Source: Micavibrio sp. (GTDB taxonomy: Bacteria; Pseudomonadota; Alphaproteobacteria; Micavibrionales; Micavibrionaceae). From it: a DNA stretch of 48,128 bases. The position numbers were made by a program, and so were the translations under genes. Location: positions 1 to 48,128 of the forward strand of contig DASTUM010000128.1 in assembly GCA_035759665.1 (NCBI GenBank), in the 5' to 3' direction. The notes below the pieces were generated by a model, which saw nothing but the letters and a program-made list of their open reading frames with translations, did not search any database and was not told the origin of the DNA. Below are positions 10,260 to 33,964 of the stretch, piece by piece (the first letter of the stretch is position 1; each line of letters opens with the position of its first letter).

Positions 10260-10928
10260 TTAAAAATCTACGTTTTCGTAGTGTTCGGAGGGCGTAAAGC
10301 CCGGTATCCGGTCTTCGAGCAGCGGTTTGAAGGCCGGTCTCGATTTCACGCGGGCGTACCAGTCGCGTGCGTGGTGATGTTCTTCCCACGGCACGTCGCC
10401 GATATAGTCGATGGCCGAGAGATGCGCCGCGGCGGCAATATCGGCGAGCGTGAATGTTTCGCCCGCAAGCCATTTGCGCTTTTCGCAAAGGAAGCCGATA
10501 TAGTCGAGATGGTAGTGGATATTGGCATGGCCGGCGCGGATGGAAGGCCCGTGCGGCTCCCCCAGCTTCAGGAACCGCTTCATCAGTTTTTCGCCGACTA
10601 GATTGTCCGTGACTTCACGGCTGAATTTCACGTCGAACCAGCCGACGAGTCGGCGGGTTTCCGCGCGCTGGATCGGGTCGCAGCCGATCAGATTGACGTC
10701 GGGATAAACTTCTTCGAGATATTCGCAGATGACCTGGCTGTTCGAGAGGATGGTGCCGTCGTTTTCGACCAGAACGGGCACGTCGCCCGCAGGGTTCATG
10801 GCCAGGAACGCCGTGCGGCGCTCCCAGATTTTCTCCACCTGCAATTCGAAGTCCAGCTTCTTTTCGGCGAGCGCAAGACGCACTTTCCGAGAGAAGGGAT
10901 GCAACCAGACATGGTAGAGGGTTCTCAT
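10260..10928 (-). CDS. glutathione S-transferase family protein
   Basis: 222-aa ORF. The N-terminal thioredoxin-like GST fold is LYHVWLHPFSRKVRLALAEKKL..VPVL..SQVICEYL, followed by a C-terminal helical GST domain. Confidence 0.85.
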   Translation of the reverse strand: MRTLYHVWLHPFSRKVRLALAEKKLDFELQVEKIWERRTAFLAMNPAGDVPVLVENDGTILSNSQVICEYLEEVYPDVNLIGCDPIQRAETRRLVGWFDVKFSREVTDNLVGEKLMKRFLKLGEPHGPSIRAGHANIHYHLDYIGFLCEKRKWLAGETFTLADIAAAAHLSAIDYIGDVPWEEHHHARDWYARVKSRPAFKPLLEDRIPGFTPSEHYENVDF

Positions 10929-10989
10929 TATGAGAAGCAGCTTACCTCATTGATCGGGTTATGAATAGAGGCTTTTCGCGGTTGCGGGT

Positions 10990-20936: not shown

Positions 20937-21443
20937 ATGCGCGCGGATTTGAACGAATTGATGGACAAGCTCGGGGTCGGATACGTCCTCTCCCCTTACG
21001 AAACCTGCCCGTGGTCGGCATACGATCCGGAAAGCGGCGTCACCGCCAGCGCCGAGGTCCGCATGGACAACGAGGGCAAGGAGGTCGAGGCCGAACTGCA
21101 ATTCCTCCACGACAATCCCGAACCCGGCAAACCGCCGATGGAGCAGATGATCTGGATATTCGCCAAGCCTGTCGTGCAAGCGAAATGGTCGCCGCTCACG
21201 CTGCGGATCAAGGGGCAGGACGAGCCGTCCGATGTCTATGAGTGGGAAACCAAAGGCTGCAACCTGTTCAATGCCGCCGTGCAGGAAATCAAGATGGGCA
21301 ATGTGCCCGACATCGACGACCTGATCGAGCGCGAAATGGGTGGGGACGAACGTTTCCGCGATTCCCGCCGCGGCGGCGGCAGCAAGGCGCCCAAGATCAA
21401 GCCGCAGGCCCTGCTCGGCATGAAAAACGGCCGGGGCTTCTAG
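20937..21443 (+). CDS. hypothetical protein
   Basis: 168-aa ORF with an AAAGG Shine-Dalgarno before the ATG and protein-like composition. The C-terminal tail RRGGGSKAPKIKPQALLGMKNGRGF is basic. No family recognised. Confidence 0.55.
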   Translation: MRADLNELMDKLGVGYVLSPYETCPWSAYDPESGVTASAEVRMDNEGKEVEAELQFLHDNPEPGKPPMEQMIWIFAKPVVQAKWSPLTLRIKGQDEPSDVYEWETKGCNLFNAAVQEIKMGNVPDIDDLIEREMGGDERFRDSRRGGGSKAPKIKPQALLGMKNGRGF

Positions 21444-22102
21444 GATCTCATATTCTGCGTGACGACGATGCCGTAATCGGTTGCGGCCTTGGTCAGTCCG
21501 CCATAGATCGGCTCGCCCAGCGCCTTGAACATCCAGTCGGAGCCGACGCGCTCGATATAGCCGATATACAGCCCCGTTCCATTGCCCATTTCCTCGTCCA
21601 GTTCAAAGCGGAAGCTTTCTAGATTGGTTTCGTTGTTGAGGATGCGGAAATAGACGTTCTTGACCATCGTGAAATTATTCGAGTTCAGATCGAGATCATA
21701 AATCGAAAGAACGAAAGCGATCTTGATGATCTCGAACGGCAGGGCCATCAGGTCTATCACGATCTTTTCGTCGTCACCGTCGCCCGCGCCGGTGCGGGAA
21801 TCGCCCAGGTGCTTGACCGCGCCTTCCCGCGCCGTGAGATTGTTGTAAAAGATGAAATCCTCGTCCTGCCTCGTCTTGTCGTTCTTGTCGAGCAGGAAGA
21901 CGCTGGCGTCCATGTCAATCGGGTCGCCCTCGAAACGTTTCAGATCCCAACCCACGCCGAGCGTGACTTCGCGAATCCCCGGATCAAGGCGCGTGATGTT
22001 GATCTCCTCGCCCTTGCGCACGCGCACGAGCTGAGAGTCCGGCATTATAATGCTGGGATGTTCGTCTACGTAATCGTCATCGTCGTCGTGGTGGTCGCTC
22101 AT
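21440..22102 (-). CDS. TerD-family stress/tellurite-resistance-type protein
   Basis: 220-aa ORF. TerD signatures are LGVGWDL, DMDASVFLLD, FIFYNNL and the Ca-binding-type GDSRTGAGDGDDEKIVIDL. The N-terminus MSDHHDDDDDYVDEH is acidic. Confidence 0.85.
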   Translation of the reverse strand: MSDHHDDDDDYVDEHPSIIMPDSQLVRVRKGEEINITRLDPGIREVTLGVGWDLKRFEGDPIDMDASVFLLDKNDKTRQDEDFIFYNNLTAREGAVKHLGDSRTGAGDGDDEKIVIDLMALPFEIIKIAFVLSIYDLDLNSNNFTMVKNVYFRILNNETNLESFRFELDEEMGNGTGLYIGYIERVGSDWMFKALGEPIYGGLTKAATDYGIVVTQNMRS

Positions 22103-22146
22103 TTTCTACCTCAAAGTTCGATTCTAACCCGCGCAGGGCGTTCCGA

Positions 22147-22896
22147 TCAATCTTTACTGCCGCCTTCCCATGCGAGACCGAAACCGAAGGCGCGGTCCAT
22201 TTCGGCATGGCCGGGGAAATATTCAAGATAGCTGGTCATTTTGATGCCGCCGCGCACGCTTTCGATGCCGGCCACGGCGCAGACGGACATTTCGTCACGG
22301 CGGGCATTCAGCGTCACCACCATCGGCTCTTCTCCCGGAACGCGCACCTGCACCTGCGGTTTGATGGAGGCCCAGTCGCGCGCGCCGTCATAAATATAGA
22401 CATAAATCAGAATTCGTTCGATCTCGTGCCAGTGCGCGCCGCTGACGAGGATGGTTTCATCCGGCCCCTCGCGGTCGCCGCGCTGCTCATCGCCTGTCAG
22501 AAAAATATACGGCTCCCGCTCCAGCGCACCGTGTATCTCGCCGAACGCCTGCATCCCTCCGCGCGACCCGTTGCGCAGTTCGTATAGGCAGCCGAGATCG
22601 ATGTCTACGCCCGCCTTTACCACGTTTTTTTTGAAAAACCGCTTGATGGGGTTGGCTTCACGGACAACGGGGATATTGTCCCATGCCACCCCGATATTGA
22701 AATCCGGCAGGCCGCCGGCGGGCGGATTGACGATGGCCACCTCTCCCGGTTTCGTTAGAAACGTTCCCGCCTGCCGGTCGTCATGCCGGCTGATATATCC
22801 GGCTGCGCCAAGGCCGCCGTAGCGCGATCTTTCAGCCCGGTCGCGGTTGGCCTCCAGAATGGAGCTTTGAGAATTTCGCGGAGGGTTGCCGGCCAT
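22147..22896 (-). CDS. divergent TerD-domain protein (TerA-like)
   Basis: 249-aa ORF. FNIGVAWDN, DIDLGCLYEL, YIFLTGDEQRGDREGPDETILV, ILIYVYIYDG and the C-terminal YFPGHAEMDRAFGFGLAWEGGSK resemble the TerA-type variant of the TerD fold (from memory). Confidence 0.65.
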   Translation of the reverse strand: MAGNPPRNSQSSILEANRDRAERSRYGGLGAAGYISRHDDRQAGTFLTKPGEVAIVNPPAGGLPDFNIGVAWDNIPVVREANPIKRFFKKNVVKAGVDIDLGCLYELRNGSRGGMQAFGEIHGALEREPYIFLTGDEQRGDREGPDETILVSGAHWHEIERILIYVYIYDGARDWASIKPQVQVRVPGEEPMVVTLNARRDEMSVCAVAGIESVRGGIKMTSYLEYFPGHAEMDRAFGFGLAWEGGSKD

Positions 22897-22979: not shown

Positions 22980-24656
22980 ATGGCCGCATACCAATATGTT
23001 TACGTGATGAAAGACCTGAAAAAGACCTTTTCGAATGGCAAGACAATTCTGAACGGGGTCACGCTCAGCTTCTTTCCCGGCGCGAAAATCGGCGTTCTCG
23101 GCCCCAACGGCGCGGGAAAATCGACGCTGCTCAAGATCATGGCCGGTGTGGACAAGGAGTTTCAGGGCGAAGCCTGGTCAGCCGAAGGCGCCAAGGTCGG
23201 CTACCTGCAGCAAGAACCCCAGCTCGACAATTCCAAGACCGTCGCGGAAAACGTGATGGAAGCGCTTAAGGATAAAAAGGCGAAGGTCGATCGCTACAAC
23301 GAAGTCGCGGGCCTGATGGCCGATCCGGATGCCGATTTTGACGCGCTGACTGAGGAGATGAGCCAGCTGCAGGACGAGATCGACGCCGAAAACCTTTGGG
23401 AACTTGACCGTACGGTGGAAATGGCGATGGACGCGCTGCGCTGCCCGCCCGCCGATTCTCCTGTGACGAATCTGTCTGGCGGTGAAAAGCGGCGCGTGGC
23501 CCTCGCCCGTCTGCTGCTGGAAAAACCAGACCTTCTGCTGCTCGACGAACCGACGAACCATCTCGACGCAGAATCCGTCGCCTGGCTGCAACGCCATCTG
23601 CTCGATTATAAAGGCACCGTCGTGATGGTCACGCACGACCGTTACTTCCTCGACAATGTCACGGGCTGGATTCTCGAAGTCGACCGTGGCCAGGGCATTC
23701 CCTACGAGGGCAACTATTCCGCGTATCTGGACAAGAAACGCAAGCGTCTCGAACAGGAAGCAAAGGACGAGGCGAACCTCGCCAAGACCGTCGCCCGCGA
23801 GCTGGAATGGATTCGCCAGACACCGGAAGGCCGCCGCAAAAAATCGAAAGCGCGCGTCGCCGCGTTCGACGAACTGGTCGCACAGTCCGAAAGCAACACC
23901 CAGCGCTCGACCCAGATCGTTATCCCCGCTCCAAGCGAGCGCCTCGGCCAGAACGTCATCGACGTCAAGGATGTCAAAAAAGGTTACGGCGAGAAGCTTC
24001 TGATCGAAGGCTTGTCGTTCAAGCTTCCACCCGGCGGCATCGTCGGCGTGATCGGCCCGAACGGCGCGGGCAAATCCACCCTTTTCCGCATGATTACGGG
24101 GCAGGAAAAACCGGATGAAGGCTCTTTCGCCGTCGCGGATTCTGTGCGCCTGGGCTATGTTGACCAAAGCCGCGATTCCCTCGACGACAACAAAACCGTG
24201 TGGGAAGAAATTTCCGACGGACTCGACATTCTCAAACTGGGCAAGATCGAGATGATGAGCCGCGCCTATGTGGCAAGCTTCAACTTCCGCGGTCCCGACC
24301 AGCAAAAGAAGATCGGCATGCTATCCGGCGGCGAACGCAACCGCGTCCACCTCGCCAAAATGCTCAAATCCGGAGCAAACGTTCTTCTCCTCGACGAACC
24401 TACCAACGATCTCGATACGGAAACGCTCGGCGCACTCGAAGAGGCACTGGAGAGATTTCCGGGTTGCGTCGTCGTGATTTCCCACGACCGTGCCTTCCTC
24501 GACCGCCTAGCGACGCATATGCTCGCTTTCGAAGGGGATTCCCATGTCGAATGGTTTGAGGGCAATTACGAGGATTACGAGAAGGATTACAAGCGCCGCT
24601 ACGGCGAAAACGCCTCTCCCCATCGCATCAAGTACAAACCGCTGCGCGCCGCTTAA
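22980..24656 (+). CDS. ettA: energy-dependent translational throttle ABC-F ATPase
   Basis: ORF 22956..24656. MAAYQYVYVMKDLKK..LSFFPGAKIGVLGPNGAGKSTLLKIMAG aligns from its first residue with the EttA N-terminus, so I start at 22980. It has two ABC cassettes (LSGGEKRRVAL, LSGGERNRVHL). Confidence 0.93.
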   Translation: MAAYQYVYVMKDLKKTFSNGKTILNGVTLSFFPGAKIGVLGPNGAGKSTLLKIMAGVDKEFQGEAWSAEGAKVGYLQQEPQLDNSKTVAENVMEALKDKKAKVDRYNEVAGLMADPDADFDALTEEMSQLQDEIDAENLWELDRTVEMAMDALRCPPADSPVTNLSGGEKRRVALARLLLEKPDLLLLDEPTNHLDAESVAWLQRHLLDYKGTVVMVTHDRYFLDNVTGWILEVDRGQGIPYEGNYSAYLDKKRKRLEQEAKDEANLAKTVARELEWIRQTPEGRRKKSKARVAAFDELVAQSESNTQRSTQIVIPAPSERLGQNVIDVKDVKKGYGEKLLIEGLSFKLPPGGIVGVIGPNGAGKSTLFRMITGQEKPDEGSFAVADSVRLGYVDQSRDSLDDNKTVWEEISDGLDILKLGKIEMMSRAYVASFNFRGPDQQKKIGMLSGGERNRVHLAKMLKSGANVLLLDEPTNDLDTETLGALEEALERFPGCVVVISHDRAFLDRLATHMLAFEGDSHVEWFEGNYEDYEKDYKRRYGENASPHRIKYKPLRAA

Positions 24657-25168
24657 TATTGGTTGTAGCAGTAAGCGGCGTCGTTCGCCGGAAACAAAAG
24701 CCCCCAGCACCAGATTGGCGAGCGAGCTGTTTGGGCCGCCGCCGATATAGCCGACGCATTTGCCCAATGGAACATCCGGATCGTTCGACGTCGTAGCGTA
24801 TTGCGCATGGCAACAGCTCACGCCTGCCGCCTCGCAGGCTTTCTTGCAATCGCCAAGGCTCGTCTTCGTGAGGTTCGAACCAGTGCCGCCGGTGCAGCCG
24901 CTGAAAACAAAGGCTCCGCATTTAACCCTCTTCGTAGCCCCACCAATCTTGTCGTCGACATATTTTTTGGTGGCGGCGTCCTGGTCGTCCGTCGGATACC
25001 CGATGCGATCATATGATTTTCGGCGATGGTGCGCTTCGTTATCTGCGCCATGGCCCGCACCGGCCCTTTCATCAGGTTCATGCCGACCACGCTGATGGCG
25101 CCGACCATGGCGATAGAGGCGAAAAGAACGAAGAGAATGCTCTCCGTGAGGAGCGGGGATACAGGCAT
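24653..25168 (-). pseudogene. small membrane-anchored Cys-rich protein gene, reading frame broken twice
   Basis: Three minus-strand frames each carry one protein-like segment. Frame 1: MPVSPLLTESILFVLFASIAMVGAISVVGMNLMKGPVRAMAQITKRTIAE. Frame 2: SYDRIGYPTDDQDAATKKYVDDKIGG..KCGAFVFSGCTGG..GDCKKACEAAGVSCCHAQY..GKCVGYIGGGPNSSLANLVLG. Frame 3: LLFPANDAAYCYNQY-stop at 24653. The junctions coincide with a T4 run (25017-25020) and a C5 run (24701-24705). Confidence 0.5.
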
Positions 25169-25344: not shown

Positions 25345-25458
25345 CCGCGCTTTTGGCAGATCAAATTGGCAAAGGCGGGAAGCCGTATGATATTATTTAA
25401 GCACGATTAAATAGGATTTTTGGTCTATACTGCCAGGGGATGGGCAGGCAGGGGATTG

Positions 25459-28400
25459 ATGGCGGTTAACACTCAGAATATAAACGCAAAAAGCGTTGCG
25501 AGATACGTCCTCTTGCCGGGCATTTTGCCGCGCGTGCATGAGCTTGTCAGCTCCGGATTCGGCTACCTGGCTTTTCTGTTTGCATCCGTTTACCGCACCG
25601 TTCGTATTCTGCCGCCGAACCACCCCTACCTGAATCCCGACAATATCGGCAAGTTCGGCGTTCTGCAGGTTATCGCCGCCGCGGCCAATAACCTTCAAAT
25701 TGACCGCAAGCATCTCGATCAGATCGTGGTTTTCTTCGCCCTGCTCGCAGGACTCATCCTGATCTTCCTGCAATTCGCGCTGCTTCTCTTCGCTGTGTTC
25801 GCGGGTCACGCCTTCGCGCAGACTCAGGGCGGGGCGCCGTTCGAAAGCATGTTCGTCACACAATACCCGGCCAGCGACATCGCCTTTCTTATGCTCGACT
25901 ATGTTTTCGGCATTCCGGGCGGAAGCGAATACGGGCCGAACGTCGGCTGGTTCGGATCCGCGGCGATTCCCGATGGTCCCACATCCTTCCATCGCGGCCT
26001 GCACGCATTGTTCAACTTCTACAACCTGGCGATCCTTCTCGTCGGGGTTCTTATCTTCCTTTACTACATCGTCGTTGTCGTCATTGAAACGGCGCAAACC
26101 GGCGTTCCGTTCGGCAGGCGTTTCGCAAAGCTTTACGCGCCCTTCCGCCTGATCACTGCCATCGGCCTCCTCGTTCCCCTGAATTATGGCTTCAATGGCG
26201 CGCAATACATCACGCTTTACGCCGCAAAGATCGGTTCCAGTTTTGCGACCAACGGATGGCTTCTTTATAACGATGCGCTTGCCGGATCTGCGGGCGGCAC
26301 AGGCGGGGCGCAAGGTGGAACGCAAGGCGGGAACACGAACAACCCGATAGGAGCTCCCAACGCTTCCCTCGTCGCGCGTCCGAGAACGCCCTCCATCGAC
26401 GAGCTGCTATATTTTTCCAGCGTCTATCACGCCTGCCGCGAGATGTATGGCATATGGCAGGCCAAAGATACCCAGAACCCCTCGAAGGGCGGGGTTTGTA
26501 TCAAGCCTTACGTTATATACAACGGACAAGCCCATGAGTTCATCAGCGGCGGCGGCGGAAGCGCCTGCGGTAATAACCAGGGCCAGGGCCAGGGTCAATC
26601 GTCAGGCCTCAGTTACAATGATGCCAAGGATATTTTCCACAACAATGATATGGAAATCGTCCTAGGCGAGTGGGATACGAAAGAACATGCCAGCTATGTC
26701 GGCGGCGTCCGCCCTTATTGCGGAAAAATCACTGTTTCCCTGAGCAACGACAATCCCAGCATTTACACCTCGCAAAGCACGGGCGGAGGGGGCGGAGCGC
26801 AACAATCAACCGGCGTCCGCGCCGTCGAGAATATGTGGTATACCGTGCTCCAGACCATTTTAAAAAACGAGGGCGCTTTTGCCGCCTTCGGCGAGCGGGC
26901 GGCGCACTTTTACGTGCCCTCGACAAGCCAGCATGACCCTTGCTGGAGAAGCGGAGATCTTAAGGGCAGCGGCGGCGGTGGCGGCGGCGATTGCTCCGAA
27001 ACGAACTGGTTCCCGCCTGCAGCTGCATTCGTTCCGCAGATGAATATGTTCCGCGCCCAGAACGCCGCCCTCGTTATGGAGCATTATACGACGTTCAGAA
27101 ACAATCTGAATCTGTCTCTCCAGCAGGATCTGCGCCGCCGCGGCTGGGGCGGAGCAGGAATCTGGTATAACAATATCGCGGACCTGAACGGAACCTTCAG
27201 CTCCGCGATCTATGCCACGCCGACGGTCAAACAATTCCCCGAAGTCATGGAATACGTGAAGCGGGAAAAACAGACTCAGGATACGAAATCGGGTATCTGC
27301 TCCACCTACGATCCCAACCTTGCAGACAACAAGCCCGTTGCATTCACCAAAACCAACGAACTCGACATAGCCAAGGCATTGAACGCCACCTACAAATATC
27401 ACGTCTGCGATCGTCCGTCGCAGGATAGCATTTCAAACCAGGCGGCAGGCGGCGGAAACACGGGAAATACAGGAAACGGCAATAACGGAGACTGCGCCGA
27501 CCAGAGCACCAGTTCGGTACGCGGCATGACGAACAACACATTCGTCAACGTCGTCTCCCTGATTTTCGGCATCAACGGGCTGTTCGACATACGCTGCAAT
27601 TCCAAAATGGACCAAGCCACCGGAATGCCGCAGGTACACCCCCTGGCGCAGCTGGCCGTCGTCGGAAAAAGCCTGATTGAAAACGCCATCCGAAGCATGG
27701 GGATGGCCGTCGGCACATCTTTTGGCGGCGGTATTATCGGTGTACTGAGCCCGGCGCTCGGCCCCGCGCTCGAATCCGCCAGCGGCATGTTCGTCGGCAT
27801 CGCCACCATCGGCCTGACCGCCGGCTTCCTGCTTTATTACATTCTGCCGTTCCTGCCGTTCATGTATTTCTTCTTCGCGGTGGGTTCGTGGGTTAAATCG
27901 ATTTTCGAGGCCATGGTCGGCGTTCCCCTGTGGGCGCTGGCGCACCTGCATATCGACGGCGACGGGCTTCCGGGCCGCGCGGCGATGGGCGGATACTTCC
28001 TCATCCTTGAAATCACGCTGCGCCCCATATTCACGGTCTTCGGGCTGATCGGCGGCATGGCGGTGTTCGGCGCCATGGCAACCGGCCTCAACAATCTTTT
28101 CGACCTCGTCGTCGTCAACATCACCGGGGCTACGCCCTCCCCCAATAGCGGAAGCTCGCTTCTCCTCGGTTCCGTGGAATCTGTTCGCCGCGGCGTCATC
28201 GACCAGTTCTTCTTTACGATCATGTACGCCGTTCTCCTCTATATGATGGCGACGACGTCCTTCAAAATGATCGACCAGATTCCGCAGCACGTCATGCGCT
28301 GGATCGGATCGTCCGTGCCGATCTTCAACGACGACAAGCAGGACCCGACCTCCGGTCTTACGACCTACACCGCGCTGGCCGGCAACCAGATCGTTCCGCA

Positions 28401-28512
28401 AATGCTGGGCGGCGTAAGATCCGGCGTGGGCGGCATCGGCAGGGGACTCGGCGAGGCCTTGAACATGGCCAAAGGCGATACTCCGGCCCAAGGGGGAGGT
28501 AGCCAGCAATGA
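25459..28512 (+). CDS. DotA/TraY-like polytopic membrane protein, paralogue 1 of 3 (with Gly/Asn/Gln-rich insertions)
   Basis: ORF 25420..28512. I start at 25459 (MAVNTQNINAKSVARYVLLPG), which follows an AGGGGA Shine-Dalgarno and aligns with the N-termini of the two paralogues. N-terminal TM helices are followed by ETAQTGVPFGRRFAKLYAPFRL, a roughly 500-aa hydrophilic middle, and a C-terminal TM bundle with PFLPFMYFFFAVGSWVKSIFEAMVGVPLWALAHLHIDGDGLPG. Confidence 0.85.
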   Translation: MAVNTQNINAKSVARYVLLPGILPRVHELVSSGFGYLAFLFASVYRTVRILPPNHPYLNPDNIGKFGVLQVIAAAANNLQIDRKHLDQIVVFFALLAGLILIFLQFALLLFAVFAGHAFAQTQGGAPFESMFVTQYPASDIAFLMLDYVFGIPGGSEYGPNVGWFGSAAIPDGPTSFHRGLHALFNFYNLAILLVGVLIFLYYIVVVVIETAQTGVPFGRRFAKLYAPFRLITAIGLLVPLNYGFNGAQYITLYAAKIGSSFATNGWLLYNDALAGSAGGTGGAQGGTQGGNTNNPIGAPNASLVARPRTPSIDELLYFSSVYHACREMYGIWQAKDTQNPSKGGVCIKPYVIYNGQAHEFISGGGGSACGNNQGQGQGQSSGLSYNDAKDIFHNNDMEIVLGEWDTKEHASYVGGVRPYCGKITVSLSNDNPSIYTSQSTGGGGGAQQSTGVRAVENMWYTVLQTILKNEGAFAAFGERAAHFYVPSTSQHDPCWRSGDLKGSGGGGGGDCSETNWFPPAAAFVPQMNMFRAQNAALVMEHYTTFRNNLNLSLQQDLRRRGWGGAGIWYNNIADLNGTFSSAIYATPTVKQFPEVMEYVKREKQTQDTKSGICSTYDPNLADNKPVAFTKTNELDIAKALNATYKYHVCDRPSQDSISNQAAGGGNTGNTGNGNNGDCADQSTSSVRGMTNNTFVNVVSLIFGINGLFDIRCNSKMDQATGMPQVHPLAQLAVVGKSLIENAIRSMGMAVGTSFGGGIIGVLSPALGPALESASGMFVGIATIGLTAGFLLYYILPFLPFMYFFFAVGSWVKSIFEAMVGVPLWALAHLHIDGDGLPGRAAMGGYFLILEITLRPIFTVFGLIGGMAVFGAMATGLNNLFDLVVVNITGATPSPNSGSSLLLGSVESVRRGVIDQFFFTIMYAVLLYMMATTSFKMIDQIPQHVMRWIGSSVPIFNDDKQDPTSGLTTYTALAGNQIVPQMLGGVRSGVGGIGRGLGEALNMAKGDTPAQGGGSQQ

Positions 28513-31226
28513 TGGCCGCATTCGAGATGTTTAAAGGGGTAACCAAAGGACAAGTGGCGCGCTATATGCTGACGCCGCAGATCGGGCCGCGCCTGAACCG
28601 TTTATATCAGGACGGTTTCTCCTCTTTGGCCTATATGATCGCGCTGGTTTACCGCGCCGTAAATATTCTGCCCGAAGGGCATTTCGCCTTGCGCCGCGAG
28701 AACCGGGCGCATCTTGGAATACGCGAAGTCATGGCGGCGGCGGCGGCGGAAATCAAATTTACCCGAAGGAACATAGACCAGATCATCATCTATTTTGCGA
28801 TCATGGTGGGAATGGCGCTGCTGGTCGGGCAATTCTTCCTGACGCTAGGATACCTGATGGTCAACCCCGCCATGGCGTCGGTGGCGAGCATGCCCACTAA
28901 TTACAGCGACTTTTTTGCCCAGCATACCGACACGGATGTTGCATACCGGCTTCTCTTTACCGTCTTCGGCGTGCCGGATCTGTTTTCCGTCGGCGGCATG
29001 ACAGCGAGATCCGCCTACCACACCGCCCTGCATTCCCTCTTCCAGCTTTACAGCGTCGGGCTTTTGGTCGTCGCGGCCATCATCATTTGCTATTTTATTT
29101 TCGCGATTGTCGTCGAAACGGCGCAGACAGGCGTTCCGTTCGGCAAGCGATACAACCATGTATGGGCGCCGATCCGGCTTGTCTTTGCCCTGGGCCTGCT
29201 GATTCCAATCGGCTACGGCTTGAACGCGTCGCAATGGATCACGCTTTATTCCGCCAAGTTCGGCTCCGACTTCGCCACGCGCGGCTGGAATATTTTCAAT
29301 CAAACGATGAACGATGCCATGATCCAAAATCAGGATGAGCGGGTTGGCAGGCCGCAGGCGCCTGAAATGATGAATCTCATGGCGTTCATGATGACGACGC
29401 TGACCTGCAAACATCTCTATACCACTTTGTATTCGGGGAACGGGGGCCAGAATGGCAAGCCGATGCAAATCAATGCCTATCTGGTCAAAAACCCCGCCGA
29501 AGGAGAGGGTGTCCCGATCAGCTCCGGCAATGACGGATTTACCCAGGCGCAGAAATACTTCGCCAACGGCGATATCGTCATTCGCTTCGGAGAGCACAAC
29601 CCGGACGTCCATACGAAAGAACGCGGAAAAGTTTATCCTTACTGCGGTGAATTGATTATCATGTCCAGCGACGTCCACTCGGAAAATCAGGACGGCGCTT
29701 ATTCCATGCAGCAATATTATTTCTCGCTTGTCGAGAAAATATTCAATAGCAACGCATTTCAGATCAATACGGAAGCAGAAAATTTTGCAAAAAAATACTC
29801 GACTTATCTGGGAAATCCTTCCGCCCCAATGCCCAAACCTGCTTTTAAAAGCACATTGAACACGCAGGTAAGCAAGGAGGTCGAAGATCAGATCGCGCGA
29901 GCCGTTACCCTCCAGGCGCAAAGCGCAGAGTGGCAAAAGGGCTTACAAGAAATACAGAATCTCGGATGGGGCGGCGCTGGCCTTTGGTATAACAAAATCG
30001 CCCAGATCAACGGGGCACTGGCAAACTCCGTTGCCGCAACGCCTCAAATCCGCTCCATGCCCGCCGTCATGGAGTATGTGAAGCTGAAGCAATTGCAGCA
30101 AAACAAGGATAACCCCCAAGCCCACGATCTCACTTTGTCCGACCACAAGGCGATACAGTTCGACACGGAGCTTGATCGCAACGTTGCAAACGTCCTTTCC
30201 TATCTCTTCCAGTACTGGACGAAGGAAGACCTCGATCAGGGGGATCTCGGCACCCAGACGCGCCGCACCAACAATATCGTCATAGACGTAATCAACAGCA
30301 TCTTCGGAACCAAGGGGCTGTTCGACATGTGCAACAGCGCCAACGTTCACCCGCTATCGCAGCTTGCCATCCTCGGCAAGGGCCTGATCGAGGCCTCTGT
30401 CCGCAACATCGCCGGCGGAACGGCGCTGAGCGCCCTCAGCATGATCAACGTTCCTTTCCTCGGCGTGGCCGCGGGCGCAGCCGGCAGTATCCTGTTGTCG
30501 GTCGCGACGATCACGCTTTCGATGGGCTTCCTGCTCTTCTACGTGATTCCGTTCATGCCGTTCCTGTATTTCTTCTTCGCGGTCGGATCGTGGGTCAAAT
30601 CGATTTTCGAAGCCATGGTCGGCGCGCCCCTCTGGGCTCTCGCCCACCTGCGGATCGACGGGGAAGACCTGCCTGGCGACGCCGCCATGCGGGGCATCTA
30701 CATGATTTTCGAAATATTCCTGCGGCCGATCCTGATCATCTTCGGGCTGCTGGCCTCGTTCATCATTTTCTCGGCCATGGTCAAAATACTAAATGAGATA
30801 TTCTCTCTGGTCGTCGTCAACCTTGCCGGTCACGATCCGACGGCGGCGTCCGTTTGCGGCCGGGGTACTGGATCGACAGCGACAGGCACCAATGAAACAC
30901 CGATGAACTATTTCCGCGGGCCGATCGACGAATTGTTCTTCACGGTTATCTACGCGATCATCGTTTATATGATCGGCATGTCCTGCTTCAAACTGATCGA
31001 CCTTATCCCGAACAACCTGCTCCGCTACATGGGTACGGACACCAAGTCGTTCAGCGATCAGGCGATCGACCCGACTGAAGGCATGATGCGCAACCTCGGC
31101 TTCGGCGCCATGTCGGTCAGCCGCACAGTGATCAGCGATATCGGCGGCAACGCGGCCGGTGCCGTCGGGCAGACGATGCGCGCCGGTATGAAAGCAGCGA
31201 GCACGCCTCCTTCAGGGAGCAACTAA
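28509..31226 (+). CDS. DotA/TraY-like polytopic membrane protein, paralogue 2 of 3
   Basis: 905-aa ORF. Its ATG overlaps the paralogue-1 stop (ATGA), with GGGGGAGG upstream. It has the same motif set: ARYMLTPQIGPR, ETAQTGVPFGKRYNHVWAPIRL, GWGGAGLWYNKIA, PFMPFLYFFFAVGSWVKSIFEAMVGAPLWALAHLRIDGEDLPG. Confidence 0.88.
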   Translation: MMAAFEMFKGVTKGQVARYMLTPQIGPRLNRLYQDGFSSLAYMIALVYRAVNILPEGHFALRRENRAHLGIREVMAAAAAEIKFTRRNIDQIIIYFAIMVGMALLVGQFFLTLGYLMVNPAMASVASMPTNYSDFFAQHTDTDVAYRLLFTVFGVPDLFSVGGMTARSAYHTALHSLFQLYSVGLLVVAAIIICYFIFAIVVETAQTGVPFGKRYNHVWAPIRLVFALGLLIPIGYGLNASQWITLYSAKFGSDFATRGWNIFNQTMNDAMIQNQDERVGRPQAPEMMNLMAFMMTTLTCKHLYTTLYSGNGGQNGKPMQINAYLVKNPAEGEGVPISSGNDGFTQAQKYFANGDIVIRFGEHNPDVHTKERGKVYPYCGELIIMSSDVHSENQDGAYSMQQYYFSLVEKIFNSNAFQINTEAENFAKKYSTYLGNPSAPMPKPAFKSTLNTQVSKEVEDQIARAVTLQAQSAEWQKGLQEIQNLGWGGAGLWYNKIAQINGALANSVAATPQIRSMPAVMEYVKLKQLQQNKDNPQAHDLTLSDHKAIQFDTELDRNVANVLSYLFQYWTKEDLDQGDLGTQTRRTNNIVIDVINSIFGTKGLFDMCNSANVHPLSQLAILGKGLIEASVRNIAGGTALSALSMINVPFLGVAAGAAGSILLSVATITLSMGFLLFYVIPFMPFLYFFFAVGSWVKSIFEAMVGAPLWALAHLRIDGEDLPGDAAMRGIYMIFEIFLRPILIIFGLLASFIIFSAMVKILNEIFSLVVVNLAGHDPTAASVCGRGTGSTATGTNETPMNYFRGPIDELFFTVIYAIIVYMIGMSCFKLIDLIPNNLLRYMGTDTKSFSDQAIDPTEGMMRNLGFGAMSVSRTVISDIGGNAAGAVGQTMRAGMKAASTPPSGSN

Positions 31227-31260
31227 GCCATGAACCGCGATATTCTCCATATGGTGCTCC

Positions 31261-33927
31261 ATGGCGAATAACCCGGGCATAACCCGCGGTCAGGCCCTGC
31301 GGTACCTGTTTCTTCCCCAAATCTTTCCCCGCGTCTCGAAATTACTGGGAAGCGGGTTCATAAACCTGCCTTACTTCATTGTGGTCGTTCTCAACACGGT
31401 GAAGATCATCCCGGACGGCCACCCCTATTTGCGCCGCGACCATCACGGGCGCTATTCGATCTTCCAGGCGCTGGCGGTCGGGGCTGACAATATCCCCTTC
31501 AACCGGAAGAATATCGATAAAATCACAATTTTCGGCACGATCCTCGTGGGCTTAGCCCTGTTGATCATGCAATTCCTGCTTTGCATCGCCGCTATCTTCA
31601 CGAACCCAGCCTTCGCATCTAATGGCCCCGGCCTTGGCCCGCGCACGGCGGAAGCGTTCATCGGCAACAATAACGCACAGTCCGACCTAGCTTTCCGTCT
31701 TCTGGATCTCGTTTTCGGAATCCCAAACATTTTCAACTCCTCCAACCAGGGCACGACACCCTTCCATTTCGGATTGCAGGCTCTTTTCGAATTCTACTCC
31801 TACGGAATCCTGCTCGTTGGGACCTTCGTCATCATCTATCTCACGACAACGATCGTTCTAGAAACGGCGCAATCCGGCGTTCCCTTTGGCCAGCGCTTTA
31901 ACAAGGCATGGGCGCCCGTCCGCCTCATCCTGTTTTTCGGGCTTTTGCTTCCGGCCAACAACGGAATCAATCTTGCGCAATATGTTGTTCTGGAATCGGC
32001 AAAGCTGGGCTCGAACGTCGCCACCAACGCCTGGCTGACCTTCGACAAGGCGGCGAACACGCCTTATCTCGGAAATGCCGCGGAACTGGTGGCGATGCCC
32101 AACCTGCCCGACCTGCAATCCTATATATCCTTCATGGCCCTTTCCCGCACCTGCTCATGGGCGGAAGGGCGGATCAACGGTTACGATGTGCGACCCTATA
32201 TCGTTTTTCCAACGGGAGATCCCGTCGATATCTCTACTTCCGTGCCGGCTTTTTCGACACTGGCCGACAGGGCAAAGGGCGGAACGCTGGTCATCCGCCT
32301 CGGCGTGCACGACAAGGAGCGATATAAGACCGAGCAAGGAAATGTCTTTCCCCAGTGCGGCGAGCTTGCCATGCCGCTCGTCGATCGCGCGCAGCCGGGT
32401 TCAGCGTTCATACAGCAAGCCTATCTGGAAACGATCCCCTGTTTCTGGACCGTAAGCTCCGGCTCGGCACTGCAGAACTGCAGCACGGATATTTTCAGCG
32501 ATATGGGACGCGATTTTACGGCGCGTTATTCAAACGCCGTCCTGCCGGAAAAAAACTATCCCAACATGGAGCCTTACCTTTGGCCGGCGCAGCGCATGTC
32601 TGTCGCGATGATGTTTAACTATGATTTAGAAGAAGCCGTTAAAGAAGGCGTAAAGCGTCAGCGCGAGCAGGGCGACTGGAACAACAACCCCGCTCTGGTA
32701 AGGGGCTGGGCCGGGGCAGGCATCTGGTTCAACCGCATCGCGGAACAGAACGGCGCCATCACCGCGGCTATCCACGCCAAGCCCGAGCCCATGCTCCTGC
32801 CCTACGTCATGGAATATATCAAAAAGGAAAAACTCCGGCAGGATAGCAACACCCCGCTGACGCAACTCTTTACGCCGATGCTTTCATCCGGAAACATGAT
32901 CCGGTTCGAAACGCCCCAGCAAAGGGACGTCGCCGTCGTTCTCAGCCAGATTTTCAAAGCCTGGGGAATAGAAGGGGTTGTTCCTTTCTATGAAAACACA
33001 CCGGTATCGTACAATCAGGGGCAGACAGGAAACGTTATCATCGACGTTTTCAACGCCATGATGGGTACGCAGGGCCTTTTCGATATGTGCCGCAACATGA
33101 ACGTGAGTCCGCTGGCGCAGCTTTCCTCGATGGGCCGCGGCCTGATCGAACACTCCATCCGCAACTTCGGCATGGCGACAGGGGCCGGGCTTCTCACCCT
33201 GCTTGATAAATCGAATTTCAAACAGACCCTCAAAGCCGCGACCGATTTCCTTCTGACCTTCGGGTCAATCGGCCTCCTGCTCGGCTTTCTGCTCTTCTAT
33301 GTTTTACCGTTCCTGCCCTTTATTTATTTCTTCTTCGCCATCATGACATGGATCAAGTCCATCTTCGAGGCCATGGTCGGAATGCCGCTCTGGGCGCTGG
33401 CGCACCTCAAGATCGACGGTGAAGGCATGCCGGGCGACGCGGCGGCCAGCGGGTATTTTTATATACTCGAAATTTTCCTGCGTCCGACGGTTATCATCGT
33501 CTCGTTCTTGGGCGGCATCATTATTTTTACCGCGATGGTGAAAGTTTTGAACCAAATCTTCTACCTCGTTCTGACCAACCTTACCGGCCATATTTCGATG
33601 GCGGGCACGACGGACTGCTTTGGCCCGCCGGGATCGCCCGGCCCGTCGGAATCGGAATTCAAACGCGGCTCCATCGACGAATTTTTTTATACAGTGATTT
33701 ATACGATCGTCGTCTACATGATCGCGCTGCCCTGCTTCAAACTGGTCGACGACATACCCGACAACATCATGCGCTGGCTCGGCGCAGGCATCAGCTCGTT
33801 CGGATCGCAAGACGGCGATCCGGCACGTGGCCTGATGACCAACGTCGCGGGCGGCGCCACCCTTATAGGCGGCCAGATGTCGGGAAGCGTCAGAAATATG
33901 GGCTTCACTACCCACAGCAAGGATTAG
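31261..33927 (+). CDS. DotA/TraY-like polytopic membrane protein, paralogue 3 of 3
   Basis: 888-aa ORF with the same motif set: LRYLFLPQIFPR, ETAQSGVPFGQRFNKAWAPVRL, GWAGAGIWFNRIA, PFLPFIYFFFAIMTWIKSIFEAMVGMPLWALAHLKIDGEGMPG. No alternative in-frame start lies upstream. Confidence 0.88.
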   Translation: MANNPGITRGQALRYLFLPQIFPRVSKLLGSGFINLPYFIVVVLNTVKIIPDGHPYLRRDHHGRYSIFQALAVGADNIPFNRKNIDKITIFGTILVGLALLIMQFLLCIAAIFTNPAFASNGPGLGPRTAEAFIGNNNAQSDLAFRLLDLVFGIPNIFNSSNQGTTPFHFGLQALFEFYSYGILLVGTFVIIYLTTTIVLETAQSGVPFGQRFNKAWAPVRLILFFGLLLPANNGINLAQYVVLESAKLGSNVATNAWLTFDKAANTPYLGNAAELVAMPNLPDLQSYISFMALSRTCSWAEGRINGYDVRPYIVFPTGDPVDISTSVPAFSTLADRAKGGTLVIRLGVHDKERYKTEQGNVFPQCGELAMPLVDRAQPGSAFIQQAYLETIPCFWTVSSGSALQNCSTDIFSDMGRDFTARYSNAVLPEKNYPNMEPYLWPAQRMSVAMMFNYDLEEAVKEGVKRQREQGDWNNNPALVRGWAGAGIWFNRIAEQNGAITAAIHAKPEPMLLPYVMEYIKKEKLRQDSNTPLTQLFTPMLSSGNMIRFETPQQRDVAVVLSQIFKAWGIEGVVPFYENTPVSYNQGQTGNVIIDVFNAMMGTQGLFDMCRNMNVSPLAQLSSMGRGLIEHSIRNFGMATGAGLLTLLDKSNFKQTLKAATDFLLTFGSIGLLLGFLLFYVLPFLPFIYFFFAIMTWIKSIFEAMVGMPLWALAHLKIDGEGMPGDAAASGYFYILEIFLRPTVIIVSFLGGIIIFTAMVKVLNQIFYLVLTNLTGHISMAGTTDCFGPPGSPGPSESEFKRGSIDEFFYTVIYTIVVYMIALPCFKLVDDIPDNIMRWLGAGISSFGSQDGDPARGLMTNVAGGATLIGGQMSGSVRNMGFTTHSKD

Positions 33928-33940
33928 TGTCAAAAGCAAA

Positions 33941-33964
33941 ACCCCCTGCAAGCAGGGGGTTTTT
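33941..33964. terminator. bidirectional rho-independent terminator between the DotA-like operon and mlaC
   Basis: ACCCCCTGC-aag-CAGGGGGT stem with AAAA before and TTTT after. It lies between the convergent stops at 33927 and 33987. Confidence 0.8.

What the first reader, a model, noticed from the sequence alone, without database searches (positions are those of the whole stretch)
25459..33927. Orphan triplet of tandem DotA/TraY-like polytopic membrane paralogues in a core-genome context
Seen in the sequence: three consecutive plus-strand genes (about 1017, 905 and 888 aa) share one architecture and long near-identical motifs.
- An N-terminal (V/A)(A/L)RY.L.P.I.PR....L...GF block comes before the first hydrophobic helices.
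- Next come D(I/V/L)A(F/Y).(L/M)L..VFG(I/V)P and then a long helix.
- That helix ends in ETAQ(T/S)GVPFG.R(F/Y)...(W/Y)AP.RL....GLL.P...G.N..Q(Y/W).
- A 400-500 aa hydrophilic, highly divergent middle follows, with a few conserved Cys (P(Y/Q)CG(K/E)(I/L), FD(I/M).C(N/R)).
- After the middle come GW(G/A)GAG(I/L)W(Y/F)N.IA..NG and P.VMEY(V/I)K.
- The C-terminal helix bundle carries PF(L/M)PF.YFFFA...W(V/I)KSIFEAMVG.PLWALAHL.IDG(D/E)..PG.AA..G..(Y/F/M)I.EI.LRP.

From memory this layout matches Legionella DotA and IncI-plasmid TraY (TIGR04346), and more remotely VirB6/TrbL. The shared features are an N-terminal TM pair, a G-(K/R)-x-W/Y-x-x-P-x-R block right after a helix, a giant periplasmic loop, and a C-terminal bundle with an AMVxAP...H..(E/D)G loop. 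I cannot verify this without a profile search.

Inference: the window has no DotB/DotO/DotL-type ATPase, no core-complex gene (DotC/D/F/G/H), and no relaxase, integrase or tRNA. Composition looks like the flanks, and those flanks are housekeeping genes (ettA upstream; mlaC-mlaA-lptG-lptF downstream). A triplicated DotA-like module on its own, linked by start/stop overlap and a bridging uORF, suggests a hetero-oligomeric envelope channel, secretion device or contact device that is not part of a recognisable type IVB machine. It is the best candidate here for an undescribed system.
Basis: partly seen in the sequence, partly recalled or inferred. Interest (0 to 1): 0.9.

Follow-up and report, generated by a model that had tools for sequence, protein, structure and literature searches.

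The report
Tandem DotA-like channel proteins, Micavibrio clade
Three neighbouring genes encode diverged copies of DotA, the central channel protein of Legionella-type (type IVB) secretion machines, and they sit among housekeeping genes with no other secretion-machine gene nearby in a relative of the prey-leeching bacterium Micavibrio, so they are a testable candidate for the unknown predator-to-prey conduit.

Summary
Three co-oriented genes (25459-28512, 28509-31226, 31261-33927) encode paralogues that are 33-39% identical.

- **Family:** all three pass the curated NCBIfam DotA/TraY cut-off (211-274 bits against 100). They fail the DotA equivalog model. An AlphaFold model of the middle protein matches only Legionella DotA in the PDB.
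- **Organism:** the window comes from a Micavibrio-like alphaproteobacterium and is syntenic with M. aeruginosavorus ARL-13, where the trio is GMV_196-198.
- **Conservation:** more than 80 related loci carry the tandem set, as three copies or sometimes four. It usually lies between ettA and mlaC-mlaA-lptG-lptF.
- **Selection and expression:** dN/dS is 0.13-0.16. In ARL-13 the trio is expressed with an attack-phase bias.
- **Clade-specific feature:** every copy has an N-terminal module of about 120 aa that ends in a conserved signal-peptidase-like (A/V/S)-x-A motif. Classical DotA/TraY lack this module.
- **Partners:** no other type IVB or IncI transfer gene lies within 10 kb of the tandem in any locus. 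The published ARL-13 gene list, however, includes an 'icmO' (DotL-like) gene elsewhere, so 'orphan' holds locally but not necessarily genome-wide.

My best reading is DotA-type inner-membrane channel subunits of a strongly reduced, dispersed type-IVB-derived apparatus, plausibly used in epibiotic predation. This is a new variant of a known kind, and the function is inferred.

The parts
25459..28512 (+). Paralogue A, a DotA/TraY-family polytopic membrane protein of 1017 aa. Its periplasmic middle carries G/N/Q/S-rich low-complexity inserts.
   Evidence: Translation. TIGR04346 210.8 bits against a cut-off of 100. 55% identical to its positional orthologue in L003 and 40-43% to that in L002. dN/dS 0.13 against L082. 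Low-complexity runs listed.
28509..31226 (+). Paralogue B, a DotA/TraY-family protein of 905 aa. Its start overlaps A's stop (ATGA).
   Evidence: TIGR04346 273.7 bits. PDB DotA 9ngy E 3.8e-16. AlphaFold model with pLDDT 74.6 and pTM 0.65. Foldseek 9ngy_FP1 E 4.1e-13, TM-score 0.43-0.45. dN/dS 0.16.
31261..33927 (+). Paralogue C, a DotA/TraY-family protein of 888 aa.
   Evidence: TIGR04346 235.9 bits, one stretch covering profile positions 4-656 of 656. 55% identical to its L003 orthologue. dN/dS 0.13.
25459..25818 (+). N-terminal module of A (aa 1-120). It has a basic, probably cytoplasmic region of about 85 aa with conserved motifs, then one strongly hydrophobic helix ending in AFA|Q.
   Evidence: The module lies outside the TIGR04346 match. 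Alignment A2. A profile of the module finds 568 cluster representatives, always at the N-terminus, and the full-length ones are about 870-1120 aa. Motif statistics. Coordinates.
28509..28877 (+). N-terminal module of B (aa 1-123), ending in AMA|S.
   Evidence: As for A. AlphaFold gives helices 26-50, 71-81 and 86-125 with pLDDT 77-88. The hydropathy peak is at residues 92-110.
31261..31617 (+). N-terminal module of C (aa 1-119), ending in AFA|S.
31231..31272 (+). A 13-codon mini-ORF bridging B's stop and C's start. It may act as a translational-coupling relay.
   Evidence: Sequence. Its length and its overlap with C's start codon are conserved in L082 and L006 but not in L003 or L002.
25366..25394 (+). 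Promoter-like site (TTGGCA-17-GATATT) upstream of A. This is weak evidence.
   Evidence: Consensus scan. The number of such sites in the region equals the chance expectation.
33943..33959 (.). G+C-rich hairpin with T-runs on both strands, between the stop of C and the stop of the convergent mlaC. It is a likely bidirectional terminator that closes the three-gene unit.
   Evidence: Terminator-like hits on both strands at the same position.
24653..25168 (-). Degraded copy of a gene transcribed divergently from the trio. The intact gene encodes a membrane-anchored, fibre-like, Cys-rich protein and is called 'peptidase M50' GMV_199 in ARL-13. I do not count it as a required partner.
   Evidence: tblastn of the intact 435-446 aa orthologues (L003, L006): aa 1-57 and 317-446 are retained, about 260 aa are missing and the pieces lie in different frames. 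The gene is intact in the closest relative, L083. It is absent in L002, L004 and L005. Weak match to PF03906, below threshold.

Best explanation
**Shown**
- The three genes are ancient tandem paralogues of the DotA/TraY family.
- They are co-oriented, tightly packed, intact and under purifying selection.
- They are a fixed chromosomal feature of a clade of Alphaproteobacteria that includes the obligate epibiotic predator Micavibrio aeruginosavorus.
- Each protein has the DotA layout: a signal-type helix, two N-terminal transmembrane helices carrying the T-A-x-x-G...G-x-[KR]...W-x-P-x-R block, a large divergent periplasmic domain with conserved Cys, and five long C-terminal hydrophobic helices with the EAMVxAP...[ED]G loop.
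- Each also has a clade-specific N-terminal addition of about 90 aa, inferred to be cytoplasmic, in front of the signal-type helix. That helix ends in a nearly invariant (A/V/S)-x-A.

**Inferred**
- In the Legionella Dot/Icm machine, DotA forms a pentameric inner-membrane and periplasmic chamber that gates the translocation path (Yue et al. 2025). I infer that these proteins assemble in the same way, either as separate homo-oligomers or as a mixed oligomer.
- They would act as the channel subunits of a strongly reduced type-IVB-derived apparatus whose genes are dispersed around the chromosome.
- At least a DotL/IcmO-like coupling ATPase appears to be encoded elsewhere (GMV_383 in ARL-13). No canonical outer-membrane core complex or DotB/DotO ATPase has been reported.
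- The tandem expansion of the channel subunit would be the type IVB counterpart of the five tandem VirB6 paralogues of the Rickettsiales rvh system.
- ARL-13 transcribes the trio in the free-swimming attack phase, when two thirds of its genes are silent. The most likely role is therefore a pre-assembled, contact-activated conduit used when the predator docks on prey.
- The N-terminal module is probably cleaved off by signal peptidase I, or else stays as an extra anchor, and it could dock a cytoplasmic partner.
For: **Family and fold**
- TIGR04346 scores above the cut-off for all three.
- DotA is the only PDB sequence hit and the only significant fold hit.

**Organism and vertical inheritance**
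- The closest named homologues come from Micavibrio and alphaproteobacterial MAGs.
- The window is colinear with ARL-13 GMV_175-234, and the trio corresponds to GMV_196-198.
- In the loci that cover both flanks, the order ettA-[3 or 4 tandem copies]-mlaC-mlaA-lptG-lptF recurs in most of them. This holds across soil, freshwater, wastewater and marine samples, down to 31-35% identity.
- Positional orthologues are more alike than paralogues.

**Functionality**
- dN/dS is 0.13-0.16.
- ARL-13 expression indices (attack/attachment) are 11.9/3.9, 4.8/1.7 and 3.6/2.8. Flanking housekeeping genes read about 0-0.7 in attack phase, and only 33% of genes are transcribed then.

**N-terminal module**
- 568 representatives, always N-terminal.
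- Ala at position -1 in 99% of 185 sequences; A/V/S at position -3 in 96%.

**Absence of local partners**
- phmmer with 30 IncI-type transfer proteins against 4158 ORFs (1.27 Mb) hits only the DotA-like genes.

**Possible distant partner**
- 'icmO' GMV_383 in ARL-13.

**Model for function and for the expansion**
- DotA-IcmX protochannel.
- Rickettsia RvhB6a-e and the five scattered gene islets.
Against: - No experiment addresses these proteins. Their oligomeric state, localisation, substrates and any role in predation are all inferred.
- In Legionella, assembly of the DotA-IcmX channel needs DotG and IcmX. No homologue of either is known here.
- I could not retrieve the ARL-13 'icmO' sequence, so I could not verify it. 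It is a 2011 automatic name.
- The attack-phase bias is modest (1.3- to 3-fold) and comes from one RNA-seq experiment.
- The recurring neighbours are envelope-maintenance genes, not secretion genes: mlaC/mlaA/lptFG, or in another lineage MltA plus LplT/Aas. That pattern would suit a different role.
- Most members come from uncultured MAGs, so it is not known whether the whole clade is predatory.
- Foldseek TM-score is only 0.43-0.45 at 16% identity. The model agrees with DotA in overall architecture, not in detail.
Confidence: 0.45

Rival explanations
1. The DotA-like fold has been re-used for envelope maintenance. On this reading the trio is an inner-membrane and periplasmic complex that moves or senses lipids or cell-wall material together with the neighbouring Mla/Lpt (or MltA/LplT-Aas) functions, and it has nothing to do with secretion into another cell.
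For: - In every context I read, the nearest genes on at least one side are housekeeping genes, and in the two main contexts they are envelope genes.
  - In most loci these are mlaC-mlaA-lptG-lptF. They stay adjacent even after an inversion of that block (L084).
  - In L066, L067 and L071 a same-strand MltA gene directly follows the trio, and in L066 and L071 a lysophospholipid transporter/acyltransferase gene comes next, although the upstream genes differ.
  - Other contexts show BacA (L047, L084) and BamB (L015).
- No secretion ATPase or core-complex gene is nearby.
Against: - The mla/lpt genes are convergent and separated from the trio by a terminator-like hairpin. They are not co-transcribed with it.
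- In ARL-13 their expression is opposite to the trio's: vacJ reads 0.7/12.2 and the lptF/G genes 0/0.9, against attack-biased values for the trio.
- No DotA/TraY or VirB6-type protein is known to have such a role. Every characterised member is a secretion or conjugation channel part.
- The adjacency may be nothing more than conserved synteny.
Confidence: 0.2
2. The trio is one islet of a complete type IVB secretion or conjugation system whose other genes lie elsewhere in the genome and are too divergent to have been recognised in 2011. The outer-membrane core, the DotB/DotO ATPases and an IcmX-like partner would all be among them. This would match the scattered layout of the Rickettsiales type IV system.
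For: - ARL-13 has an 'icmO' gene flanked by three hypothetical genes of 255, 193 and 404 aa. These sizes are compatible with coupling-complex partners.
- Rickettsia shows that an alphaproteobacterial type IV system can be split into five islets, with five tandem copies of the channel subunit.
- Roughly half of ARL-13's genes are annotated as 'hypothetical'.
Against: - The genome paper states that there is no evidence of a type III or IV system.
- Its full gene list contains no dot, virB, virD, traG, traD or conjugal-transfer names apart from icmO.
- DotO/TraU (VirB4-type) and DotB/TraJ ATPases are highly conserved and rarely missed by annotation.
- None of 30 IncI-type transfer proteins apart from TraY hits anything in 1.27 Mb around the tandems.
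Confidence: 0.15
3. The genes are decaying remnants of an ancient integrated conjugative element or type IVB locus and have no present function.
For: - There are no partner genes nearby.
- ARL-13 carries nine integrase-bearing islands without transfer genes.
- The divergent neighbouring gene is a pseudogene in this window.
Against: - All three ORFs are intact here and in more than 80 loci spanning deep divergence.
- dN/dS is 0.13-0.16.
- The genes are transcribed in ARL-13.
- Composition matches the flanks, and there is no integrase or tRNA.
- The copy number is maintained at three or four.
Confidence: 0.02

Closest known systems
[quoted passage not shown] 2025, bioRxiv 10.1101/2025.06.23.660953)
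   Same: - Same family model (TIGR04346).
- Same order of parts: a signal-type helix, TM1-TM2 with the conserved G-x-[KR]-[WY]...W-x-P-x-R block, a periplasmic 'extended' domain of 400-500 aa with conserved Cys, and five long hydrophobic C-terminal helices with the EAMVxAP...[ED]G loop.
- It is the only significant PDB match by both sequence and fold.
   Different: - Only 16% identity, and the equivalog model NF033886 is failed (155-193 bits against 500).
- Three or four tandem paralogues rather than one gene.
- An added, probably cytoplasmic N-terminal region of about 90 aa.
- No icmX, dotG, dotO or dotB nearby.
- A housekeeping chromosomal context rather than the dot/icm loci.
- The host is a bacterial predator, not an intracellular pathogen of eukaryotes.
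TraY of IncI1-type conjugative plasmids (R64/ColIb-P9 type; MPF_I)
   Same: Same family. tblastn finds 3922 plasmid records at 19-25% identity, aligned mainly over the C-terminal helix bundle.
   Different: - TraY is shorter (about 720-745 aa) and lacks the N-terminal module.
- It is a single-copy gene embedded in the traH-traY/trbABC/nikAB transfer region of mobile plasmids.
- None of those partner genes accompanies the trio.
RvhB6a-e, the five tandem VirB6 paralogues of the Rickettsiales vir homolog type IVA system (Gillespie et al. 2009, PMC2653234)
   Same: - The closest analogue in organisation: a tandem expansion of the inner-membrane channel subunit into large (674-1154 aa) paralogues with divergent flanking regions.
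- It is vertically inherited in an alphaproteobacterial lineage that depends on other cells.
- The system's genes are scattered in islets.
   Different: - A different protein family (VirB6/TrbL rather than DotA/TraY). There is no sequence hit and no significant fold hit here.
- The rvh paralogues sit directly behind virB3-virB4, and the rest of a near-complete type IV system is identifiable in the genome.
VirB6/TrwI of type IVA systems (R388 stalk complex, PDB 7o3v)
   Same: Functional analogue of DotA: a pentameric inner-membrane base of the central stalk or channel (as discussed).
   Different: No Pfam TrbL/VirB6 hit. Foldseek E 4.2, rank 38, not significant.

Membership tests
DotA/TraY family (NCBIfam TIGR04346) | Whole-protein score above the curated cut-off (100 bits) | tested here: met
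   A 210.8, B 273.7 and C 235.9 bits. C matches profile positions 4-656 of 656 in one stretch.
DotA/TraY family (NCBIfam TIGR04346) | DotA architecture: signal-type helix, two N-terminal TM helices, large periplasmic domain, C-terminal bundle of long hydrophobic helices | tested here: met
   Hydropathy peaks. AlphaFold helices 86-125, 169-207, 219-231, then a mixed alpha/beta domain at 240-610, then helices 615-644, 651-712, 723-772, 799-840 and 859-898. Compared with the DotA description.
DotA/TraY family (NCBIfam TIGR04346) | Fold similarity to the solved DotA structure | tested here: met
   Foldseek 9ngy_FP1: E 4.1e-13, probability 1.00, 949 aligned columns, TM-score 0.43-0.45. The next hit has E 0.28. 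The TM-score is moderate, so this shows agreement in architecture, not in detail.
DotA/TraY family (NCBIfam TIGR04346) | Encoded within a type IVB / IncI-type (MPF_I) transfer gene cluster | tested here: not met
   The window holds only housekeeping genes. phmmer with 30 MPF_I proteins against the window plus 79 loci hits only the DotA-like genes. Plasmid TraY genes do sit in such clusters.
DotA/TraY family (NCBIfam TIGR04346) | Forms a pentameric chamber with an IcmX/TraW partner | not testable with these tools
   No multimer prediction was available, and no IcmX/TraW homologue was found near the trio.
Type IVB secretion system protein DotA (NCBIfam NF033886, equivalog) | Whole-protein score above the curated cut-off (500 bits) | tested here: not met
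   193.2, 175.1 and 155.7 bits.
VirB6/TrbL family | Match to the Pfam TrbL/VirB6 model, or significant fold similarity to VirB6/TrwI | tested here: not met
   No Pfam family at E <= 1, apart from one chance-level COX2_TM hit. 7o3v_F has Foldseek E 4.2.
Complete type IVB (Dot/Icm-like) secretion system | DotB, DotO and DotL ATPases, the DotC/D/F/G/H core complex and IcmX present in the same genome | tested here: inconclusive
   All are absent from the window and from +/-10 kb in every related locus. For the syntenic genome ARL-13, the authors report no type IV system, but the gene list includes 'icmO' GMV_383. I could not scan a whole genome.

The most novel reading that the evidence does not exclude
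The tandem DotA-like proteins, alone or with only a DotL-like ATPase, form a self-sufficient contact-activated channel that works without any type IV outer-membrane core. This channel would be the long-sought conduit through which Micavibrio-type epibiotic predators inject factors into attached prey or withdraw contents from them. The cleavable N-terminal module would be a new built-in assembly or docking element.
Probability: 0.2. Interest if true: 0.85.

Novelty: new variant of a known kind. Interest (0 to 1): 0.62.

Why it matters
**For type IV secretion.** DotA was placed at the centre of the Dot/Icm machine only in 2025, as the gate of the translocation path. In Legionella its assembly depends on DotG and IcmX. 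The lineage described here has kept three or four DotA paralogues under selection for a long time, with no recognisable core complex. It therefore offers a natural 'minimal' setting in which to ask what a DotA chamber can do by itself.

**For predation biology.** How epibiotic predators feed through the prey envelope is an open question, and the Micavibrio genome paper could point only to haemolysins and porins. The trio is conserved across the clade, expressed in the attack phase and homologous to a secretion channel. M. aeruginosavorus can be cultured on prey, which makes the trio a concrete gene set to test.

**If it proves ordinary.** If the trio turns out to be one islet of a dispersed but complete system, the result is less surprising. 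It would still correct the published statement that Micavibrio has no type IV secretion genes.

Tried and rejected
- **Genome-collection scan wasted.** The window's own protein B is not on record in the contig index.
- **The Micavibrio 'icmO' protein.** I could not retrieve it. No tool fetches by name or by coordinates. A search seeded with the plasmid gene TrbC or with Legionella DotL would have filled its 120 rows with plasmid or Legionella proteins, so I ran no further search on it.
- **Defence-system reading.** No PADLOC hit for the trio or its unknown neighbours.
- **RNA features.** No Rfam family or tRNA in the window.
- **The divergent upstream gene as an IcmX/VirB5-like partner.** Rejected. 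It has no family hit beyond a weak phage-fibre motif. It is missing in several lineages and is a pseudogene in this window.
- **Mobile-element origin.** Rejected on composition, the lack of an integrase or tRNA, and deep synteny.
- **Literature.**
  - No paper holds both 'Micavibrio' and 'DotA'.
  - None of the listed results connects Micavibrio with Dot/Icm or DotL.
  - None of the listed results connects DotA/TraY with predatory bacteria.
  - None of the listed Micavibrio papers is a comparative-genomics study.
  - Pasternak et al. 2014 (PMC3930308) is not held in the library.
- **Promoter scan.** Uninformative: 6 sites found against 6.0 expected.
Full report
**1. What is in the sequence**

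Three plus-strand ORFs fill 25459-33927:
- A: 1017 aa from ATG 25459, preceded by an AGGGGA ribosome-binding-like motif.
- B: 905 aa.
- C: 888 aa.

The proteins are 33-39% identical over their full length.

A's stop and B's start overlap (ATGA). B and C are 34 nt apart, and a 13-codon mini-ORF bridges them. That mini-ORF is conserved in the two closest relatives I read. A hairpin with T-runs on both strands (33943-33959) follows C and separates it from the convergent mlaC.

The rest of the window consists of housekeeping genes:
- upstream: acs-like, dsbD, ahpC, a histidine kinase, GST, cytochrome b561/YceI, rsmD, a pseudouridine synthase, tadA, purD, putA, xseA, TerD and ettA
- downstream: mlaC, mlaA, lptG, lptF, pepA, an EpmB-like radical-SAM enzyme, holC, cytochrome c, pheA, ftsK, lolA and recR

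There is no tRNA and no Rfam hit. G+C in the trio (0.54-0.58) matches the flanks.

**2. Family**

- All three proteins exceed the curated cut-off of NCBIfam TIGR04346 'DotA/TraY family' (211-274 bits against 100). They fall far below the DotA equivalog model NF033886 (156-193 bits against 500).
- Pfam has nothing.
- By sequence, the only solved structure matched is Legionella DotA from the in-situ DotA-IcmX protochannel (9ngy/9nh0, E 3.8e-16). The match runs over the TM1-TM2 block and the C-terminal helices.
- An AlphaFold2 model of B built on 65 homologues (pLDDT 74.6, pTM 0.65) has one significant PDB neighbour, the same DotA chain: E 4.1e-13, probability 1.0, TM-score 0.43-0.45, 16% identity. 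VirB6/TrwI is not significant (E 4.2).
- The family call is therefore confirmed. The VirB6/TrbL link is not.

**3. Whose genome**

The nearest homologues (88-43% identity) come from metagenome-assembled genomes. Where named, these are Micavibrio sp., M. aeruginosavorus or 'Alphaproteobacteria bacterium', and the proteins are already labelled 'DotA/TraY family protein' or 'Type IV secretion protein DotA'.

The expression table of the M. aeruginosavorus ARL-13 genome paper lists the same gene order as the window: pepA (GMV_191), two 'conserved hypothetical' genes (lptF/G), vacJ (mlaA), Ttg2 (mlaC), three 'putative membrane proteins' of 2694, 2763 and 2742 bp (GMV_196-198), a 1305-bp gene, then the ABC protein (ettA). 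Further out, the order also matches from recR/lolA/ftsK to the acetoacetate-CoA ligase.

The window therefore comes from a Micavibrio-like alphaproteobacterium, and the trio exists in the cultured predator.

**4. Distribution and stability**

I read 85 related loci from genome, metagenome and assembly collections.

- Wherever both flanks are covered, there are three tandem same-strand copies. Seven metagenome loci plus L085 have four.
- The usual setting is ettA-[tandem]-mlaC-mlaA-lptG-lptF-pepA. It is found in wastewater, groundwater, soil, freshwater and Tara Oceans samples, down to 31-35% identity to B.
- Positional orthologues are closer than paralogues: 55% against 33-39% for L003, and 40-45% against 33-40% for L002. 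The triplication therefore predates these lineages.
- A second lineage, also labelled alphaproteobacterial, has the trio in other contexts. There a same-strand MltA lytic transglycosylase gene directly follows the trio, and in two of the three contexts a lysophospholipid transporter/acyltransferase gene comes next.
- Against the closest relative (89% aa identity), dN/dS is 0.13, 0.16 and 0.13. Neighbouring genes give 0.04-0.10.

**5. A clade-specific addition**

The TIGR04346 match starts near residue 146, and Legionella DotA residue 40 aligns with B residue 157. The first roughly 120 residues are therefore extra.

- **Layout.** They comprise a basic region with near-invariant P23, R28, P55, H58 and D90. 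I infer it is cytoplasmic because both of its flanks are rich in Arg/Lys. A strongly hydrophobic helix follows and ends in (A/V/S)-x-A. Across 185 sequences the -1 Ala is 99% conserved and the -3 position is A/V/S in 96%.
- **Processing.** This is the signature of a signal peptidase I site. It lies where DotA has its ordinary signal peptide. Cleavage is inferred, not shown.
- **Occurrence.** A profile of the module searched against 1.84 billion representatives finds 568 proteins (461 at E <= 1e-10). In the 150 listed, the match is always at the N-terminus, and the full-length ones are 870-1120 aa. The module therefore marks this DotA-like clade and appears in no other architecture.
- **Conservation by region.** Among the paralogues the membrane parts are the most conserved (39-53%), the N-terminal module is intermediate (39-44%), and the periplasmic domain is the least conserved (26-30%).

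**6. Are they orphans?**

Locally, yes. Thirty IncI-type transfer proteins were searched with phmmer against all 4158 ORFs of the window plus 79 loci (1.27 Mb). The queries were TraH, I, J, M/DotI, N, O, P, Q, R, T, U, V, W, X and TrbA, B, C, plus a Burkholderia plasmid set. Only TraY found anything, namely the DotA-like genes. By contrast, plasmid TraY genes (19-25% identity) always sit inside transfer clusters.

Genome-wide, the picture is less clear.
- Its full gene list has no dot, virB, virD, traG, traD or conjugal names.
- The list does contain 'icmO' (GMV_383, 2583 bp) near dnaA-gyrB-argS, flanked by hypothetical genes of 768, 582 and 1215 bp. These have expression indices similar to the trio's. 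IcmO is DotL, the type IVB coupling ATPase.
- I could not fetch this protein, so its identity rests on a 2011 automatic name.
- The Rickettsiales rvh system shows that alphaproteobacteria can scatter type IV genes in islets and expand the channel subunit into five tandem paralogues. That raises the prior for a dispersed system here.

**7. Expression**

In ARL-13 only 33% of genes are transcribed in the free-swimming attack phase. The trio belongs to that third. Attack/attachment indices are 3.6/2.8 (A-type), 4.8/1.7 (B-type) and 11.9/3.9 (C-type). Its neighbours behave the opposite way: pepA 0.1/4.7, lptF/G 0/0.9, vacJ 0.7/12.2 and ettA 0.5/4.7. The Sec, Tat, type I and type II systems also rise on attachment.

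**8. Mechanism**

- **Shown:** family, fold class, tandem paralogy, conservation, purifying selection, transcription, and the absence of local partners.
- **From established knowledge of the family:** in Legionella, DotA forms a pentameric chamber anchored in the inner membrane. Together with IcmX it gates, and on contact extends into, the translocation path.
- **Inferred:** the three proteins build one or more such chambers. Their conserved helices would make the oligomer, and their divergent periplasmic domains would provide distinct surfaces. They would serve as the channel part of a reduced type-IVB-derived device, pre-made in attack phase and used at the prey contact.
- **Rivals:** an envelope-maintenance role suggested by the neighbours, an unrecognised complete system elsewhere, and gene decay (in effect excluded).

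**9. Novelty**

Databases already assign the family name. I found no paper connecting DotA/TraY or Dot/Icm with Micavibrio or with other predatory bacteria.

The new elements are:
- the tandem three- or four-fold expansion
- the N-terminal module with its conserved cleavage-type motif
- the fixed housekeeping location
- the occurrence in a predator reported to lack type IV secretion

I rate this a new variant of a known kind. Interest is moderate to high, limited by the unresolved whole-genome question and the lack of any functional data.

Noticed in passing
window 24653-25168 (- strand): The gene transcribed divergently from the trio is a pseudogene here. The N-terminal 57 aa are in one frame, about 260 aa are deleted, the Cys-rich C-terminal domain is in another frame, and the last 15 aa return to the first frame. 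It is intact (446 aa) in the closest relative, L083. It has a membrane anchor and a weak phage-tail-fibre motif. It is attack-phase-biased in ARL-13 (GMV_199, 3.2/0.7), where it is mislabelled 'peptidase M50'.
   Followed up: yes
window 31231-31272: A 13-codon mini-ORF lies between B's stop and C's start and ends inside C's first codons. Its length and its overlap with C's start are kept in L082 and L006 but not in more distant relatives. It may be a translational-coupling relay.
   Followed up: partly
window 10928-10990, compared with ARL-13 GMV_222-225: Between cytochrome b561 and GST, ARL-13 has three extra hypothetical genes of 2271, 2691 and 2715 bp, expressed only on attachment. The window has no gap there. 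Their sizes resemble those of the DotA-like genes, but I could not read their sequences.
   Followed up: no
L066 17258-18424; L067 11152-12339; L071 13192-14376: In a second alphaproteobacterial lineage a same-strand MltA (PF03562 plus 3D domain) lytic transglycosylase gene directly follows the trio. In L066 and L071 an LplT/Aas-type lysophospholipid transporter/acyltransferase gene comes next. The upstream genes are unrelated between these loci. A wall-cutting enzyme next to a trans-envelope device would make sense.
   Followed up: partly
L015, L029, L033, L047, L048, L062, L068, L085: Some lineages, including several Tara Oceans marine contigs, carry four tandem DotA-like genes instead of three.
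   Followed up: partly
window 20937-22896: A conserved block upstream of ettA travels with the trio in most loci. It comprises a 168-aa protein with no family hit, TerD, and a 249-aa protein whose orthologues show weak TerD matches. Many relatives also have a Na/Ca-exchanger gene between the two TerD-type genes.
   Followed up: no
window 25459-28512 (protein A residues 285-295, 371-383, 437-446, 503-510, 664-677): Paralogue A carries several Gly/Asn/Gln/Ser-rich low-complexity inserts in its periplasmic domain. B and C lack them, and they account for most of A's extra length.
   Followed up: partly
ARL-13 GMV_382-385 (not in the window): The published Micavibrio gene list names GMV_383 'icmO' (860 aa), flanked by hypothetical genes of 255, 193 and 404 aa near dnaA/gyrB/argS. 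This conflicts with the paper's own statement that there is no type IV secretion system.
   Followed up: partly
NCBI taxonomy, taxid 213485: NCBI taxonomy files Micavibrio under Bdellovibrionota/Pseudobdellovibrionaceae. The genome paper, the names of the related MAGs and the gene order here all point to Alphaproteobacteria.
   Followed up: no
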